IMG/VR virus record: IMGVR_UViG_3300005764_000008
Location: 1-41,221 of that record
From: a virus
Strand: one strand, 5' to 3'
Length of the DNA stretch: 41,221 nucleotides
The notes below the pieces were generated by a model, which saw only the letters and a program-made list of their open reading frames with translations, ran no database searches and was not told the DNA's origin. The position numbers and the translations under genes are program-made. Positions 1-41,221 of this stretch are shown here, piece by piece. Positions within the stretch are counted from its first letter, which is position 1, and the number at the start of each line of letters is the position of its first letter.

Positions 1-80
1 GCGTCGTGCTGGCGTCGATGCCGCCCGAAGGCATGCTGTTCCACGACATGGCCGCGAAAGGCATTCAAGGACGGCTCGCG
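1..80. repeat. Terminal direct repeat, copy 1 (identical to 41142..41221). It is either a circular-assembly overlap or a terminal redundancy.
   Basis: Bases 1-80 match 41142-41221 letter for letter. The helicase reading frame passes through the junction without a stop. Confidence 0.95.
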
Positions 81-1007
81 GCGCGGTGCGCGTCGATTCC
101 GGATCGCGTGGCGGCAACTGTATGTTTAGTGCTAAAATCGTTTAATGACGAAAGCGCAGCGCCGCGAATATTGTCGGAAGTGGCAACAGAAAAACAAGGC
201 TTGGGTGAAGGCCTATCGGGACAAGACGCGGGATCGTCGCAATGCTCGACGTCGCCATTTATACAAGCGGGACGAATGGCGAAGGAAGGAAGCGTGCGCA
301 CAAGCGACAGCTTACGCGAAGGCGCATCCGAGAGCGAAGAAACGCGACAGCATCAAACGCTACGGCCTGACACTGGAACAATTCGATGCGATGCTAATAG
401 CGCAGAAACGGCGCTGCGCGATTTGTGGCCTGCCGCAATCGCGGAAGATTTTTCCTTACGTGGATCATTGTCACCGGACGGGCAAGGTGAGAGGGTTGCT
501 CTGCATCAACTGCAATCATGGTATCGGGAAGTTTCGCGACGATACCAACTTGCTCGCGAAGGCGATCGCCTACCTAAATTTATCATCTGGTGCGGGCTCA
601 ATACCGAACAGGACGAACTTGCGCGCATCTTCGGCGACTGGTGCGTAAGCGTGTCCGGACGCGATAGCAGACTGGAAAAAATAGACATGATGCGGCGGTG
701 GATGAACGACCCGAATTGCCCCATCATGCTCAGCAAGCTCAAAGTGTTAGGGTTTGGCATGAACTTCCAGCATTGCCATCAGATGATCTGCGTCGGCCTC
801 GGCGACAGTTACGAGCAGTATTATCAGGGCGTGCGCCGCTGCTGGCGGTTCGGGCAGCAGCACCCCGTCGACGTGCATATTGTCGTCAGCGAAGCCGAAA
901 CTGGCGTCGTGGCGAACGTGCGGCGGAAGGAACAGGATGCGATGCTAATGGCGCAGGAACTGCTTACGCACCTGCGCGATTTCGAGCGAGAGGAGATGAG
1001 CGCGTGA
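3..1007 (+). CDS. SNF2/Rad54-like helicase, C-terminal part (continues the ORF starting at GTG 40421 across the circular junction)
   Basis: The frame is continuous with 40421..41221. C-lobe motifs present: KFIIWCGLNTEQDEL, SKLKVLGFGMNFQHC and YYQGVRRCWRFGQ (motif VI-like). The segment encoded by about 118-560 looks like an inserted linker. Confidence 0.8.
   Translation, partial: VVLASMPPEGMLFHDMAAKGIQGRLAARCASIPDRVAATVCLVLKSFNDESAAPRILSEVATEKQGLGEGLSGQDAGSSQCSTSPFIQAGRMAKEGSVRTSDSLREGASESEETRQHQTLRPDTGTIRCDANSAETALRDLWPAAIAEDFSLRGSLSPDGQGERVALHQLQSWYREVSRRYQLAREGDRLPKFIIWCGLNTEQDELARIFGDWCVSVSGRDSRLEKIDMMRRWMNDPNCPIMLSKLKVLGFGMNFQHCHQMICVGLGDSYEQYYQGVRRCWRFGQQHPVDVHIVVSEAETGVVANVRRKEQDAMLMAQELLTHLRDFEREEMSA
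118..575 (+). mobile_element. Putative homing-endonuclease insertion within the SNF2 helicase inter-lobe linker (boundaries approximate)
   Basis: Helicase-like sequence (GIQGRLAARCASIPDRVAATV) stops near 118 and resumes near 560 (LPKFIIWCGLN). The interval is filled by the Endo VII ORF in another frame. Confidence 0.45.
145..648 (+). CDS. Endonuclease VII-family (HNH/beta-beta-alpha-Me) homing-type endonuclease, nested out of frame inside the helicase gene
   Basis: Translation contains RRCAICGLP...VDHCHRTGKVRGLLCINCNHGIGKFRDD...AIAYL, the Endonuclease_7 signature. The N-terminus is basic. Local base composition is more A-rich than the flanks. The last ~25 codons overlap resumed helicase coding in another frame. 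Confidence 0.8.
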   Translation: MTKAQRREYCRKWQQKNKAWVKAYRDKTRDRRNARRRHLYKRDEWRRKEACAQATAYAKAHPRAKKRDSIKRYGLTLEQFDAMLIAQKRRCAICGLPQSRKIFPYVDHCHRTGKVRGLLCINCNHGIGKFRDDTNLLAKAIAYLNLSSGAGSIPNRTNLRASSATGA

Positions 1008-1171
1008 CGCCACAAGAACGACAAGCCGCCATCATCGAACTGCGCGACATGGCCTATGAAATGGAACGCCGCGCAATGCAGATGGATGGTGACGATTTCG
1101 AACGCGGACGCAGGACCGATCGCGCCAAGATGCTCCGCCTTATTGCTGCAGAATTGGAGTCGCAATCGTGA
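1004..1171 (+). CDS. Small hypothetical protein (55 aa), GTG start overlapping the helicase stop
   Basis: GTGA overlap with the helicase stop, and the ORF's own stop overlaps the next GTG start. The sequence looks helical and charged (RQAAIIELRDMAYEMERRAMQMDG). Confidence 0.4.
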   Translation: MTPQERQAAIIELRDMAYEMERRAMQMDGDDFERGRRTDRAKMLRLIAAELESQS

Positions 1172-2049
1172 ACGCCGTCACCGAAGGCGCGAATTGGACC
1201 CTCGTCAACGGCGATAGCTGCGAAGAACTGCCTAAACTGAACGCCGAGAGCGTGGATCTCTCAGTATATTCGCCGCCGTTCATGAGTCTCTACACCTACA
1301 GTGCCAGTGAACGTGACATCGGGAACTGCTCGTCAGACGCCGAGTTCTTCGAGCATTTCGGCTTTCTCCAGCGCGAACTCTTGCGCGTGACGAAGCCGGG
1401 TCGCTTGACATGCGTCCATGTCGCCCAAGTGCCGGCGATGCTCGCGCGTGATGGCTATATTGGCATGAAGGATTTCCGCGGACGCACGATCGAATGCTAC
1501 GAACGCAACGGCTGGATTTATCACGGTGAATGCTGCATCGACAAGGATCCACAAGCACAGGCGATCCGCACGCACTCGAAAGGGCTATTGTTCGTTCAGT
1601 TGAAGAAAGACGCCTCTTGGCTCCGACCGGCAATGGCCGACTACATTCTTGTATTTCGGAAGTCTGGCGAAAACGCCGTCGCAATTCGGCCCGATCTCAC
1701 GAATGAAGAATGGATCGAATGGGCACGCCCAATCTGGTATGGCATTCAAGAGTCGGATACGCTCCAAGTCGCTGAAGCGAGAGCGAATGACGACGAACGC
1801 CATATCTGTCCACTGCAACTCGGGACAATCGAACGCTGCGTTCGCCTCTGGTCGAATCCGGGCGAACTCGTCGTCTCACCGTTCGCCGGGATCGGGAGCG
1901 AAGGCTATGAAGCCGTGCGGCTTGGGCGACGGTTCTGGGGCTGCGAGCTCAAGGAATCGTATGCGCGTGTCGCAGTGCGCAATCTCCAGACGGCGGAAAC
2001 ACTGAAGACGCAAGGCGGACTCTTCGACGCGGCGACGGTGACGACATGA
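1168..2049 (+). CDS. DNA methyltransferase, N4-cytosine/N6-adenine family (beta-class motif order)
   Basis: Catalytic motif SPPF (DLSVYSPPFMSLY) lies N-terminal. The AdoMet motif VVSPFAGIGSEGYEAVRLGRRFWGCE lies C-terminal. Confidence 0.85.
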   Translation: MNAVTEGANWTLVNGDSCEELPKLNAESVDLSVYSPPFMSLYTYSASERDIGNCSSDAEFFEHFGFLQRELLRVTKPGRLTCVHVAQVPAMLARDGYIGMKDFRGRTIECYERNGWIYHGECCIDKDPQAQAIRTHSKGLLFVQLKKDASWLRPAMADYILVFRKSGENAVAIRPDLTNEEWIEWARPIWYGIQESDTLQVAEARANDDERHICPLQLGTIERCVRLWSNPGELVVSPFAGIGSEGYEAVRLGRRFWGCELKESYARVAVRNLQTAETLKTQGGLFDAATVTT

Positions 2050-40248: not shown

Positions 40249-40424
40249 CCCTCAAAGACACCGCCCTCGCCTCCGCCCTCGCCGACCGCGCCATCTATCG
40301 CACGATGGCCCAAGCCGCAATGGATCAGCTCCATGCGGCGAACCTCACGATTCAGCGCCAGCGAGACCAGATCGCCGATCTCCGCGAACAAATTGCGCGG
40401 TATGGACGGGAGCAGTTCAAGTGA
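40245..40424 (+). CDS. Small coiled-coil protein (59 aa)
   Basis: ATGA overlap upstream and GTGA overlap with the helicase start. Confidence 0.45.
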   Translation: MTLKDTALASALADRAIYRTMAQAAMDQLHAANLTIQRQRDQIADLREQIARYGREQFK

Positions 40425-41221
40425 GCTACGCCGCGTTCCTCGAGTCGAAGAAACGCGTCTATGCCGGCGACGGACTCCGCTCAGGCATCGTGCTGCCGCC
40501 GCAACTCTACGACTGGCAAGCGGCGATCGTGCGCTGGGCCCTGCGCAAAGGACGCTCCGCCATTTTCGCGGATTGCGGCCTCGGGAAATCGTTCATGCAG
40601 ATCGCATGGGCCGATGCGCTGCGCGTGCCGACGCTGATGCTCGCCCCGCTCTGTGTCGCCGAGCAGACGGTTGATGAAGCGCGGAAACTCGGCATCGATC
40701 TGGCCTACGCCGAAGGGCCGCATGCGATCCGCGGACGGCTCACGATTACGAATTACGAGCGGCTCGATCGCTTCGACCCATCAAAATTCGAGGCCGTTGT
40801 GCTCGACGAATCATCTATCCTGAAAGCCTTCGACGGCAAGACACGCACCGCGCTCATCAAAGCCTTCGGTGCGACACGCTATCGGCTCTGCTGCACCGCC
40901 ACACCGTCTCCAAACGACATCGCCGAACTCGCGAATCATGCCGAGTTCCTCGGGCTGATGACGCGACAGGAATTTCTCGCGACATGGTTCGTCCATGACG
41001 ACGAAGGCTGGCGCATGAAGAAACACGCGCGCGGCCCGTTCTTCCGTTGGCTGGCGTCATGGGCGATGACACTCCGCACACCATCAGACCTCGGCTACAG
41101 CGATGACGGCTATCTCCTGCCGCCGTTGAATGTCACCGATTGCGTCGTGCTGGCGTCGATGCCGCCCGAAGGCATGCTGTTCCACGACATGGCCGCGAAA
41201 GGCATTCAAGGACGGCTCGCG
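40421..41221 (+). CDS. SNF2/Rad54-like helicase, N-terminal part (runs off the window and continues at 3..1007)
   Basis: YDWQ, Walker A FADCGLGKS, motif II VVLDESSILK and motif III CCTATPSPND. There is no stop before the window end. Confidence 0.85.
   Translation, partial: MSYAAFLESKKRVYAGDGLRSGIVLPPQLYDWQAAIVRWALRKGRSAIFADCGLGKSFMQIAWADALRVPTLMLAPLCVAEQTVDEARKLGIDLAYAEGPHAIRGRLTITNYERLDRFDPSKFEAVVLDESSILKAFDGKTRTALIKAFGATRYRLCCTATPSPNDIAELANHAEFLGLMTRQEFLATWFVHDDEGWRMKKHARGPFFRWLASWAMTLRTPSDLGYSDDGYLLPPLNVTDCVVLASMPPEGMLFHDMAAKGIQGRLA
41142..41221. repeat. Terminal direct repeat, copy 2 (identical to 1..80)
   Basis: Exact 80-nt identity with the window start. Confidence 0.95.

What the first reader, a model, noticed from the sequence alone, without database searches (positions are those of the whole stretch)
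80..650. Endonuclease VII-type homing endonuclease gene nested out of frame inside the SNF2 helicase, with the host frame left open
What the sequence shows:
- The helicase (GTG 40421, through the circular junction, to 1007) has normal N-lobe motifs up to about nt 118 and normal C-lobe motifs from about nt 560.
- Between them is a ~440-nt, more A-rich segment. Its +1 frame encodes a textbook Endonuclease VII/HNH protein (CAICG...DHCH.TGKVRGLLC..CN.G.G).
- The endonuclease ORF fills essentially the whole insertion. Its last ~25 codons overlap resumed helicase coding.
- There is therefore no room for a group I intron core. Because the frames differ, it cannot be an intein.
- The helicase frame has no stop across the insert and reads as a hydrophilic ~145-aa linker.

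Inference:
- The helicase may tolerate a translated-through mobile insertion in its inter-lobe linker, which would be an intron-less, intein-less way of colonising an essential gene.
- Alternatively the helicase is inactivated or expressed in some unusual way.

Caveat: in this GC-rich genome, open alternative frames of this length arise by chance. The open host frame is suggestive, not proof.
Basis: partly seen in the sequence, partly recalled or inferred. Interest (0 to 1): 0.62.

Follow-up and report, generated by a model that had tools for sequence, protein, structure and literature searches.

The report
Hidden endonuclease gene inside phage helicase
A selfish DNA-cutting gene sits in a shifted reading frame inside a phage helicase gene, and selection keeps the helicase frame free of stop codons so the helicase is probably translated straight through it; this is real and widespread, but this way of invading a gene was first described in 2025.

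Summary
The window is a complete circular phage genome of 41,141 bp. Its Snf2-like helicase (GTG 40421, across the junction, to 1007) carries a 462-nt insertion at nt 114-575. Relatives that are 80-88% identical and 429 aa long lack it. The insertion is filled by an intact Endonuclease VII gene (145-648) in the +1 frame.

The open helicase frame is not chance:
- Synonymous reshuffling of the nuclease gene leaves it open in fewer than 0.05% of trials (0.7% with background codons).
- T-ending codons are absent exactly where they would create a helicase-frame stop.
- All 16 distinct loci found through the nuclease alone (31-63% GC) keep the helicase frame open. Only 1 of 53 nuclease genes outside this helicase has an open alternative frame, and that one is nested in another gene.

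I found no intron or intein signal. The insert is predicted to be a disordered loop between two well-folded lobes.

Patchy distribution, a flank that travels with the insert, and decayed copies all point to homing. A conserved extended -10 box 6 nt before the ATG suggests the nuclease is made from a leaderless transcript.

The kind is already published (Arsenault et al. 2025), and this scan has noted it before on other DNA. This is a new member. No RNA or protein data were available.

The parts
40421..41221 (+). Helicase gene, 5' part (GTG start; N-terminal RecA-like lobe with GLGKS, DESS and TATP motifs). The last 80 nt duplicate window 1-80 (terminal repeat of the circular genome).
   Evidence: PHROG 62 DNA helicase, E=1.4e-58. 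Start aligns with 'MSYADFL' of relatives. Foldseek on the model of relative P0003 gives Snf2-family ATPases as best hits.
3..113 (+). End of the helicase N-lobe, in the frame with position mod 3 = 0, up to '...IPDRVA'. This is the last stretch colinear with insert-free relatives.
   Evidence: Alignments; 75-90% nt identity to empty-site loci L089-L091 up to this point.
114..575 (+). Insertion relative to empty-site alleles (462 nt replacing about 10 codons). In the helicase frame it reads as a stop-free, hydrophilic linker rich in S, A, R, E and G.
   Evidence: boundaries; frame kept open by selection; no Pfam domain in this frame; equivalent residues 294-398 of P0003 have pLDDT about 30; composition.
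130..138 (+). TGcTAAAAT: an extended -10-like promoter element ending 6 nt before the nuclease ATG. Putative promoter for a leaderless nuclease mRNA starting at or next to A145.
   Evidence: Block TTAGTGCTAAAATCGTTT is conserved in relatives that are otherwise 50-70% identical. TGnTAnnnT with exactly a 6-nt gap occurs in 7 of 19 nested genes against a background of 0.18%. No -35 box, and not called by the consensus scanner. Inferred only.
145..648 (+). Endonuclease VII-type (His-Me finger) homing-endonuclease gene, 167 aa, in the +1 frame relative to the helicase. It has a basic helical N-terminal half and a catalytic C-terminal half. The last 24 codons overlap the helicase C-lobe.
   Evidence: AF2 model has mean pLDDT 88.5. 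Best PDB match is T4 endonuclease VII 1en7 (probability 0.99, E=0.02). CxxC, DHCH and CxxCN motifs are invariant in 17 nested homologues.
355..579 (+). Endonuclease VII catalytic domain (Pfam PF02945, positions 6-81 of 82).
   Evidence: 80.4 bits, E=2.9e-24.
576..1007 (+). Helicase C-terminal RecA-like lobe (WCGLN strand, Helicase_C, QxxGRxxRxGQ-like motif), ending with stop TGA at 1005-1007.
   Evidence: equivalent residues 430-575 of the P0003 model have pLDDT about 75-95.
603..750 (+). Flank that travels with the insert (co-conversion-like tract). It is 43-57% nt identical to empty-site alleles but 73-85% identical to insert-bearing L004. The rest of the gene matches the empty-site type.
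   Evidence: Sliding-window and per-codon comparison.
1168..2049 (+). Context only: downstream N6/N4 DNA methyltransferase gene. The helicase-methylase module is conserved in all relatives.
   Evidence: ORF (SPPF motif). Syntenic genes in L004, L005, L006 and L089-L091 carry PF01555. Pfam was not run on the window's own copy.

Best explanation
This is a free-standing Endonuclease VII-type homing-endonuclease gene that has invaded the linker between the two RecA-like lobes of a phage Snf2-like helicase. It needs no intron and no intein.

How it most likely works:
- The cassette (nt 114-575) brings its own extended -10 promoter (TGcTAAAAT, 130-138) and an ATG 6 nt downstream. The nuclease is therefore probably made from a leaderless transcript, independently of helicase translation (inferred).
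- The helicase mRNA is translated straight through the cassette in the other frame. This gives a 575-aa helicase whose lobes are joined by an extra disordered, hydrophilic loop of about 145 aa (inferred from sequence evolution and the structure model).
- Selection acts on synonymous sites of the nuclease gene to keep the helicase frame free of stops (shown).
- The nuclease is presumed to cut insert-free helicase alleles of co-infecting relatives. Repair from the invaded allele would then copy the cassette plus about 150-175 nt of downstream helicase sequence. The mosaic pattern is shown; cleavage is inferred.
- Copies later decay by nonsense mutations or in-frame deletions while the helicase frame stays open (shown in relatives).
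For: (1) Insertion and empty site. Relatives 80-88% identical are 429 aa and read ...DRVARAAEIAQAPGQWLVWCGLN... at this point.

(2) Selection for the open frame.
- Window P(open) is below 0.0005 (codon permutation) and 0.007 (background codons).
- 0 of 42 nuclease codons preceding AA-, AG- or GA-starting codons end in T, against 32 of 125 elsewhere (p=5e-5). Pooled over 7 other +1-frame loci the counts are 0 of 367 against 164 of 783 (p=1e-30).

(3) Sample unbiased for helicase-frame openness.
- Loci were found through the nuclease protein only. In 16 distinct loci the nuclease gene lies inside this helicase. All have both lobes in one frame and no stop across gaps of 177-870 nt.
- This holds even at low GC: L011 (31%) has 32 stops in the third frame, L037 (43%) has 18 and L039 (49%) has 17.
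- Controls: of 53 distinct Endo VII ORFs not nested in this helicase, the alternative frames are open in 1 and 0. The single open case is itself nested in another gene.

(4) The nuclease frame differs between lineages (+1 or +2) and there are two insertion sites, so the pattern arose repeatedly.

(5) The nuclease frame carries the protein-level constraint. Amino-acid identity is 43% in that frame against 27% in the helicase frame on the same DNA, in 36 of 36 pairs. Catalytic and zinc-binding motifs are invariant.

(6) No splicing signature.
- No Rfam hit in 1-1200.
- RNA folding z-score of 0.12.
- No intein or Hint match.

(7) AlphaFold2 model of the closest insert-bearing relative, P0003. Both lobes are confident (pLDDT about 80-95) and insert residues 294-398 have pLDDT about 30. 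The best structural matches are Snf2 ATPases. From my own knowledge, the SRCAP, SWR1 and INO80 hits naturally carry long inter-lobe insertions.

(8) Mobility. The distribution is patchy, and the window is a mosaic: its backbone matches the empty-site type, while the insert plus nt ~603-750 match the L004 type. Decayed copies exist (L004 has a TAG at codon 5; L007 and L059 are remnants), all with the helicase frame open.

(9) Promoter. An extended -10 box lies exactly 6 nt from the ATG in 7 of 19 nested genes from at least 4 lineages, against a background of 0.18%.
Against: - There is no RNA or protein evidence.
- The consensus scanner, which requires a -35 box, does not call the promoter. Only about a third of nested genes show the element, and four of the seven belong to one lineage.
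- For lineages where the nuclease is in the +2 frame, the per-locus chance of an open frame is not small (0.05-0.85). The argument there rests on the ensemble and on AT-rich cases.
- Nuclease activity, its target site and helicase activity with the insert are all untested.
- The phage is uncultured and its host is unknown.
Confidence: 0.8

Rival explanations
1. Cryptic removal. The segment is taken out of the mRNA or the protein by an unrecognised intron, a translational bypass or an atypical intein, so the mature helicase lacks the linker. The open frame would then serve only the period before removal, or an intein-like fold.
For: - An open host frame is also what an intein requires.
- Inteins carrying out-of-frame Endo VII-like genes exist in actinophages.
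- The window's insert happens to begin with Cys in the helicase frame.
Against: - No Rfam intron match and no excess RNA structure (z=0.12). The nuclease ORF fills the insert and leaves no room for a ribozyme core.
- No Hint or intein Pfam match, even at E up to 10.
- The first insert residue is C, E, R or S in relatives, and there is no HN-C/S/T at the 3' junction.
- Helicase-frame sequence is poorly conserved (27% identity) and predicted disordered.
- A 462-nt bypass has no precedent.
- An RNA intron would not need the host frame to stay open.
Confidence: 0.07
2. The nested gene is not a selfish homing endonuclease. It is a domesticated Holliday-junction resolvase or DNA-processing partner of the helicase, overprinted so that the two are co-expressed.
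For: - PF02945 is the family of T4 endonuclease VII, a junction resolvase, and T4 endo VII is the best structural hit.
- It is the only Endo VII gene in this genome.
- Its association with one helicase family is recurrent.
Against: - Close relatives (80-88% identical helicases in the same gene neighbourhood) lack it entirely.
- Copies decay.
- The flanking tract shows a gene-conversion mosaic.
- The same family occurs free-standing (L021; T7-like phages) and nested in an unrelated gene (L049).
- Endo VII-motif proteins are proven homing endonucleases (F-CphI, PMC6083498).
Confidence: 0.08
3. The open helicase frame is a by-product of composition or of the nuclease's amino-acid sequence. The helicase is in fact inactivated or dispensable.
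For: - The genome is GC-rich (62%).
- For +2-frame lineages the chance of an open frame is appreciable.
- The helicase-methylase module may be non-essential in some phages (PMC11855218 argues this for the methylase).
Against: - The window's own P(open) is below 0.0005 to 0.007.
- T-ending codons are avoided specifically at stop-creating positions.
- All 25 nested loci are open (about 20 distinct sequences), against 1 of 53 and 0 of 53 controls.
- The frame is open at 31-49% GC.
- The frame survives nuclease decay and an in-frame deletion (L007).
- Both lobes stay conserved.
Confidence: 0.03

Closest known systems
ShiLan domain: hidden out-of-frame HNH endonuclease in an actinophage DNA methylase (Arsenault, Gosselin & Gogarten 2025, Genes 16:178, PMC11855218)
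   Same: - The insertion is present or absent among close relatives.
- The host frame has no stops.
- An endonuclease ORF in another frame fills the insert.
- There is no intron or intein signature.
- The in-frame product is predicted to be a loop.
- Leaderless expression is suspected.
- It lies in the same helicase-methylase gene module.
   Different: - The host gene here is the neighbouring stand-alone Snf2-like helicase, not the methylase.
- The nuclease here is PF02945 Endo VII-type; the paper describes ShiLan's as an HNH with zinc fingers and a GTG start.
- The phage here is an uncultured 62% GC virus, not a mycobacteriophage.
- This report adds formal evidence of selection for the open frame, a co-conversion mosaic and a specific extended -10 element.
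- Sequence homology to the ShiLan nuclease was not tested.
Mycobacteriophage Pacc40 gp60 (helicase-methylase fusion) with a hidden endonuclease ORF (same paper, section 3.6)
   Same: The helicase domain belongs to the same family (33-35% identity to both lobes) and carries an out-of-frame nuclease-like ORF with the host frame open.
   Different: - The Pacc40 insert lies in the N-lobe (after 'QRPSDI', equivalent to about residue 255 here), not in the inter-lobe linker.
- Its ORF has no detectable similarity to the window's Endo VII protein (no tblastn hit). The paper's searches retrieved AP2-domain and HNH proteins for it.
- The host protein is a fusion that also carries an intein.
[quoted passage not shown]
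   Same: The nuclease family is the same (Endo VII-like), it is encoded in a shifted frame, and the host frame stays open over it.
   Different: There the surrounding in-frame sequence is a real intein that splices itself out. Here no splicing domain exists and the insert is presumably retained in the helicase.
Free-standing homing endonucleases with intronless homing (T4 Seg and Mob proteins, reviewed in PMC2988022; F-CphI of cyanophage S-PM2, an Endo VII-motif homing endonuclease, PMC6083498)
   Same: - The nuclease gene is autonomous and has its own expression signals.
- Distribution is sporadic.
- Flanking markers are co-converted.
- The Endo VII catalytic motif is used for homing (F-CphI).
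   Different: Those genes sit between genes. From my own knowledge, mobE in Aeromonas phage Aeh1 instead splits nrdA into two polypeptides. Here the gene lies inside a coding sequence that is read through.
In-frame LAGLIDADG insertions in fungal mitochondrial rps3 (Sethuraman et al. 2009; from my own knowledge, not checked here)
   Same: A homing-endonuclease gene sits inside a protein-coding gene without an intron or intein of its own.
   Different: That endonuclease is fused in frame and translated as part of the host protein. Here the two products use different frames of the same DNA.

Membership tests
Endonuclease VII / His-Me finger nuclease (Pfam PF02945) | Profile match above the curated threshold | tested here: met
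   78.4 bits against a cut-off of 23.6, E=3.7e-22; 80.4 bits in the genome search; PHROG endonuclease VII families at E down to 3.8e-30.
Endonuclease VII / His-Me finger nuclease (Pfam PF02945) | Zinc-binding CxxC...CxxC and catalytic D-H-x-H...N residues | tested here: met
   C91, C94, D107, H108, H110, C120, C123 and N124 are invariant in 17 nested homologues. The correspondence to T4 Endo VII residues is from my own knowledge.
Endonuclease VII / His-Me finger nuclease (Pfam PF02945) | Fold similar to T4 endonuclease VII | tested here: met
   AF2 model has pLDDT 88.5. The top PDB hits are 1en7, 1e7l and 2qnf (probability 0.96-0.99), but E is only 0.02-0.06 and TM about 0.3, over the catalytic part only.
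Homing endonuclease gene (mobile) | Presence or absence among otherwise close alleles, with a defined empty site | tested here: met
   Relatives of 429 aa, 80-88% identical and with the same gene neighbours, lack the insert.
Homing endonuclease gene (mobile) | Co-conversion of flanking host sequence | tested here: met
   Nt ~603-750 follow the insert-bearing type (L004), while the rest of the gene follows the empty-site type.
Homing endonuclease gene (mobile) | Site-specific cleavage of the insert-free allele and gain of the insert in crosses | not testable with these tools
   This needs purified protein and mixed infections.
Read-through ('hidden', out-of-frame) endonuclease insertion element, ShiLan type | Host reading frame uninterrupted across the insert, more often than chance allows | tested here: met
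   with the figures given in the summary and in the For line.
Read-through ('hidden', out-of-frame) endonuclease insertion element, ShiLan type | Endonuclease ORF in another frame of the same strand filling the insert | tested here: met
   ORF 145-648 against insert 114-575.
Read-through ('hidden', out-of-frame) endonuclease insertion element, ShiLan type | Insert retained in the mature mRNA and protein | not testable with these tools
Group I / group II intron | Conserved ribozyme core detectable by covariance models, or unusually stable structure | tested here: not met
   No Rfam hit except a chance snoRNA match at E=1.9. Folding z-score is 0.12. Only about 30 nt of the insert lies outside the ORF.
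Intein | Hint splicing domain; Cys/Ser at the N-terminal junction; His-Asn plus Cys/Ser/Thr at the C-terminal junction | tested here: not met
   No Pfam intein or Hint match at E up to 10 in three helicase-frame inserts. The junction residue varies (C, E, R, S) and there is no HN motif. The region is predicted disordered.
Snf2/Swi2-like SF2 helicase (host gene) | Two RecA-like lobes with SF2 motifs; profile and fold similarity | tested here: met
   Helicase_C scores 24.7 bits (cut-off 23.5). SNF2-rel_dom scores 23.0 bits, just under its cut-off of 24.9. PHROG 62 DNA helicase gives E=1.4e-58. Foldseek best hits are SRCAP, CSB, DDM1, Chd1 and RapA at E about 1e-13.

The most novel reading that the evidence does not exclude
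Read-through nesting may be a general third lifestyle of homing endonuclease genes, beside introns and inteins, and it may come with a portable expression module. Under this reading the cassette carries an extended -10 promoter placed exactly 6 nt before its ATG, so the nuclease is made from a leaderless mRNA that starts inside the host gene. Its synonymous sites would be tuned so that any host frame stays open. This would let the same Endo VII element family colonise several sites of the helicase (two found here) and unrelated genes (L049), in phages from 31% to 63% GC. The 3' part of the insert (a helix at residues 401-427 of the P0003 model) may even stand in for the native inter-lobe helix.
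Probability: 0.45. Interest if true: 0.6.

Novelty: new member of a known kind. Interest (0 to 1): 0.45.

Why it matters
Homing endonuclease genes are normally thought to need an intron, an intein or an intergenic site to live in a genome without killing a gene. This case adds strong comparative evidence for a recently proposed alternative, in which the host protein simply carries the insert as a disordered loop.

- It gives quantitative evidence that selection, not base composition, keeps the host frame open. That evidence comes from a sample chosen without regard to the host frame.
- It extends the phenomenon to a stand-alone Snf2-like helicase, to uncultured phages across a wide GC range, and to at least two sites in one protein family.
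- It offers a concrete, testable answer to the question the 2025 paper left open, namely how the hidden nuclease is expressed: an internal extended -10 promoter giving a leaderless mRNA.

There is also a practical point. Gene callers annotate only the long helicase ORF. GenBank records for Gordonia phages Squiddly and Malisha list just 'DNA helicase' over the same arrangement. These nuclease genes are therefore systematically missed, and helicases of about 575-620 aa in this family are mis-sized.

Tried and rejected
- Single-protein search of viral contigs with the nuclease found nothing. An alignment query was needed.
- The DNA search of phage records matched only the conserved C-lobe of mycobacteriophage and Gordonia phage helicases. 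No close relative has been isolated.
- The consensus promoter and terminator scan found nothing in 1-1200. The extended -10 idea therefore rests on conservation and enrichment only.
- The Rfam search gave no intron, RNA folding showed no excess structure, and the Pfam search of the helicase-frame insert gave no domain.
- The genome-contig scan gave only 3 loci, one of them nested (L093, binned as a Parcubacteria MAG). That is too little to infer a host.
- I considered a helicase-nuclease frameshift fusion and rejected it. Two stops (TAG 127-129 and TAA 133-135) lie in the nuclease frame just upstream of its conserved ATG.
- I considered a split helicase made as two polypeptides and rejected it, because no stop ends the N-terminal part.
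- I did not annotate the rest of the genome or use the metagenome-contig scan. The evidence was already sufficient.
Full report
WHAT IS THERE

The window is a complete circular phage genome. Its first and last 80 nt are identical, giving 41,141 bp. It is an IMG/VR record with direct terminal repeats, rated 100% complete.

A single reading frame runs from GTG 40421 across the junction to TGA 1005-1007 and gives a 575-aa protein. That protein matches Pfam Helicase_C. It matches SNF2-rel_dom just under that family's cut-off. It also matches PHROG 62 'DNA helicase' at E=1.4e-58.

In the +1 frame, ORF 145-648 (167 aa) matches Pfam Endonuclease_7 (PF02945) at E=3.7e-22, well above threshold. It also matches several PHROG endonuclease VII families. 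The segment around it is GC-poorer and A-rich.

IS IT AN INSERTION?

Yes. A protein search returned many relatives of 428-431 aa at 80-88% identity over the aligned lobes. These read '...AARCASIPDRVARAAEIAQAPGQWLVWCGLN...', where the window reads '...AARCASIPDRVAATV[CLVLKSFNDE ... LAREGDRLP]KFIIWCGLN...'.

The insert is nt 114-575 and replaces about 10 codons. Three empty-site loci (L089, L090, L091) have the same gene neighbourhood: helicase, a small ORF or none, then an N6/N4 methylase.

Seven other proteins of 521-579 aa carry the insert (P0003, P0027, P0030, P0031, P0033, P0036, P0039). One of 482 aa (P0049, locus L007) keeps only its two ends.

IS THE OPEN HELICASE FRAME CHANCE?

No. Four tests agree.

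(a) Codon shuffling. I kept the window's nuclease protein fixed and permuted its synonymous codons. The helicase frame stayed open in fewer than 0.05% of 2,000 trials, with a mean of 6.5 stops. Drawing codons from the helicase lobes' usage gave 0.7%.

(b) Mechanism of avoidance. In this frame arrangement, a helicase-frame stop needs a T-ending nuclease codon followed by a codon starting AA, AG or GA. In the window, 0 of 42 such positions have a T, against 32 of 125 elsewhere (p=5e-5). In seven other +1-frame loci the counts are 0 of 367 against 164 of 783 (p=1e-30).

(c) An unbiased sample.
- Proteins found with the helicase as query are biased, because a gene caller only reports a long protein if the frame is open. 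I therefore searched viral contigs and genome contigs with an alignment of the nuclease alone.
- Of 80 viral loci, 18 (15 distinct sequences), and one of three genome loci, have the nuclease gene between the N- and C-lobe of this helicase family.
- In every one, the two lobes are in the same frame and the helicase frame has no stop across a gap of 177-870 nt.
- This holds even in AT-rich genomes. L011 (31% GC) has 32 stops in the third frame, L037 (43%) has 18, and L039 (49%) has 17.

(d) Controls. Among 53 distinct Endo VII ORFs from the same search that are not nested in this helicase, the two alternative sense frames carry typically 5-6 and about 12 stops. They are open in 1 and 0 cases. 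The one open case (L049) turned out to be nested in a 941-aa ORF of another kind.

WHICH FRAME CODES?

Both frames are constrained, but differently. On the same DNA, pairwise amino-acid identity averages 43% in the nuclease frame and 27% in the helicase frame. The nuclease frame is higher in 36 of 36 pairs.

The nuclease's CxxC, DHCH and CxxCN motifs are invariant in 17 nested homologues. Its AlphaFold2 model is confident (pLDDT 88.5). Its best PDB matches are the T4 endonuclease VII structures (probability up to 0.99, though E is only 0.02).

The helicase-frame product is hydrophilic (S, A, R, E and G make up about 50%) and matches no Pfam family. In a model of the closest insert-bearing relative (P0003, 72% identical), the two lobes have pLDDT of about 80-95. 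Insert residues 294-398 have pLDDT of about 30. Residues 401-427 form a helix leading into the first strand of the C-lobe.

The model's best structural matches are Snf2-family ATPases: SRCAP, CSB, DDM1, Chd1, RapA, SWR1 and INO80. From my own knowledge, SRCAP, SWR1 and INO80 naturally carry very long insertions between the lobes, so the fold can tolerate one there.

NOT AN INTRON, NOT AN INTEIN

- Rfam finds nothing in 1-1200.
- The RNA of 100-600 folds no better than shuffled sequence (z=0.12).
- Only about 30 nt of the insert lies outside the ORF.
- However, the helicase-frame insert has no Hint or intein match. Its first residue varies (C, E, R, S) and there is no His-Asn at its end.

EVIDENCE OF MOBILITY

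The insert is patchily distributed among close relatives.

The window's helicase is a mosaic. Against the three empty-site loci, nucleotide identity is about 65-91% over the whole N-lobe and again from nt ~750 onward. It falls to 43-57% in the roughly 50 codons following the conserved WCGLN strand (nt ~603-750). In that same stretch the window is 73-85% identical to insert-bearing L004. Further downstream the window again follows the empty-site type ('HQMICVGLG') while L004 differs ('HRMLFVGIG'). This is the footprint expected from repair of a double-strand break, with co-conversion of one flank.

Decayed copies exist. L004 has a TAG at codon 5 of the nuclease. L007 has lost most of the nuclease gene (about 95 helicase-frame codons) through an in-frame deletion. 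L059 keeps only a roughly 180-nt fragment of the nuclease ORF. The helicase frame is open in all three.

The same nuclease family also occurs in other settings. It is a conventional free-standing gene between an uninterrupted helicase and the methylase (L021). It is also a sporadic free-standing gene in T7-like and other phages.

Within the helicase family there are at least two insertion sites:
- Site A is the inter-lobe linker, as in the window.
- Site B is a C-lobe loop about 45 residues downstream (L011, L013, L016, L020, L034, L039).

The nuclease is in the +1 frame in some lineages and +2 in others. The arrangement therefore arose more than once.

HOW THE NUCLEASE MAY BE EXPRESSED (INFERRED)

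There is no Shine-Dalgarno sequence before ATG 145. Instead, the block TTAGTGCTAAAATCGTTT is nearly invariant among relatives whose inserts are otherwise 50-70% identical. It contains TGcTAAAAT, an extended -10 element, ending 6 nt before the ATG. That spacing would start transcription at or next to the A of the start codon and give a leaderless mRNA.

The same design (TGnTAnnnT, gap of exactly 6 nt) is found in 7 of 19 nested genes. These include distant lineages (L001, L024, L039), against a background frequency of 0.18%. L019 and L020 have near-matches.

There are caveats. Four of the seven belong to the window's own lineage. There is no -35 box, and the consensus scanner does not call the site.

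WHAT IS KNOWN

Earlier notes of this scan pointed me to Arsenault, Gosselin & Gogarten 2025 (PMC11855218), which I read.

The paper describes the 'ShiLan domain'. This is an insertion in an actinophage DNA methylase with no stops in the host frame, no intron or intein features, and an HNH endonuclease hidden in another frame. The paper also describes a second case in Pacc40 gp60, a helicase-methylase fusion.

I checked Pacc40.
- Its helicase domain belongs to the same family as the window's (33-35% identity).
- Its hidden ORF lies in the N-lobe.
- Its hidden ORF has no detectable similarity to the window's Endo VII protein.

A preprint from the same group reports inteins with out-of-frame Endo VII-like genes. 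F-CphI shows that Endo VII-motif proteins can be true homing endonucleases (PMC6083498).

The strategy is therefore already known, and this scan has noted it before on other DNA. The window is a new member. It differs in host gene (a stand-alone helicase), insertion site and nuclease family, and in coming from an uncultured phage.

Gordonia phages Squiddly and Malisha carry the same layout, unannotated, inside genes labelled only 'DNA helicase'. They are tractable laboratory systems for testing it.

WHAT IS SHOWN AND WHAT IS INFERRED

Shown here:
- the nested genes and the empty site;
- selection for the open host frame;
- stronger protein-level constraint on the nuclease frame;
- absence of splicing signatures;
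- the mosaic flank and the decay series;
- recurrence at two sites.

Inferred:
- that the helicase is actually translated through the insert and remains active;
- that the nuclease is expressed from the proposed promoter;
- that the nuclease cuts empty alleles.

VERDICT

The finding is real and statistically solid, but it is a new member of a kind first described in 2025.

Noticed in passing
L049:1719-2252 (inside ORF L049:634-3459): An Endo VII gene of the same family is nested out of frame in a 941-aa ORF that is not a helicase (function not determined), and the host frame is open. The element type therefore colonises other genes too.
   Followed up: partly
L011:2542-2544 (also L012): In this 31% GC phage the helicase, which carries a site-B insert, has an in-frame TAA inside the conserved 'DSYEQYYQ' motif. 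Reading continues in frame through motif VI into the methylase ORF. It could be a pseudogene, a sequencing error, stop-codon recoding, or a helicase-methylase fusion like Pacc40 gp60.
   Followed up: no
L021:1983-2447: The same nuclease family occurs as an ordinary free-standing gene between an uninterrupted helicase and the methylase, overlapping the helicase 3' end by 32 nt. This could be a staging post for invasion of the neighbouring genes.
   Followed up: partly
L001:2403-2933 and L002 (Gordonia phages Malisha and Squiddly): These cultured phages have the same nested layout (Endo VII ORF of 176 aa in the +2 frame, with an S/T/P-rich linker in the helicase frame). GenBank annotates only a 619-aa 'DNA helicase'.
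   Followed up: yes
L004:3363-3377; L007:1784-1897; L059:1986-2168: Decay series of the nuclease gene: a TAG at codon 5 (L004), an internal in-frame deletion that removes most of the gene (L007), and a remnant ORF of about 180 nt (L059). The helicase frame is still open in all three.
   Followed up: yes
L093:1630-3372: A contig binned in a Parcubacteria MAG carries the same helicase with the nested nuclease, including the TGCTAAACT box 6 nt before the ATG. It is probably a phage fragment in the bin and says little about the host.
   Followed up: partly
window 1004-1171: A small ORF lies between the helicase stop and the methylase start. Its start overlaps the helicase stop (GTGA). Related loci have a small ORF of 56-78 or 133 aa here, or none.
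   Followed up: no
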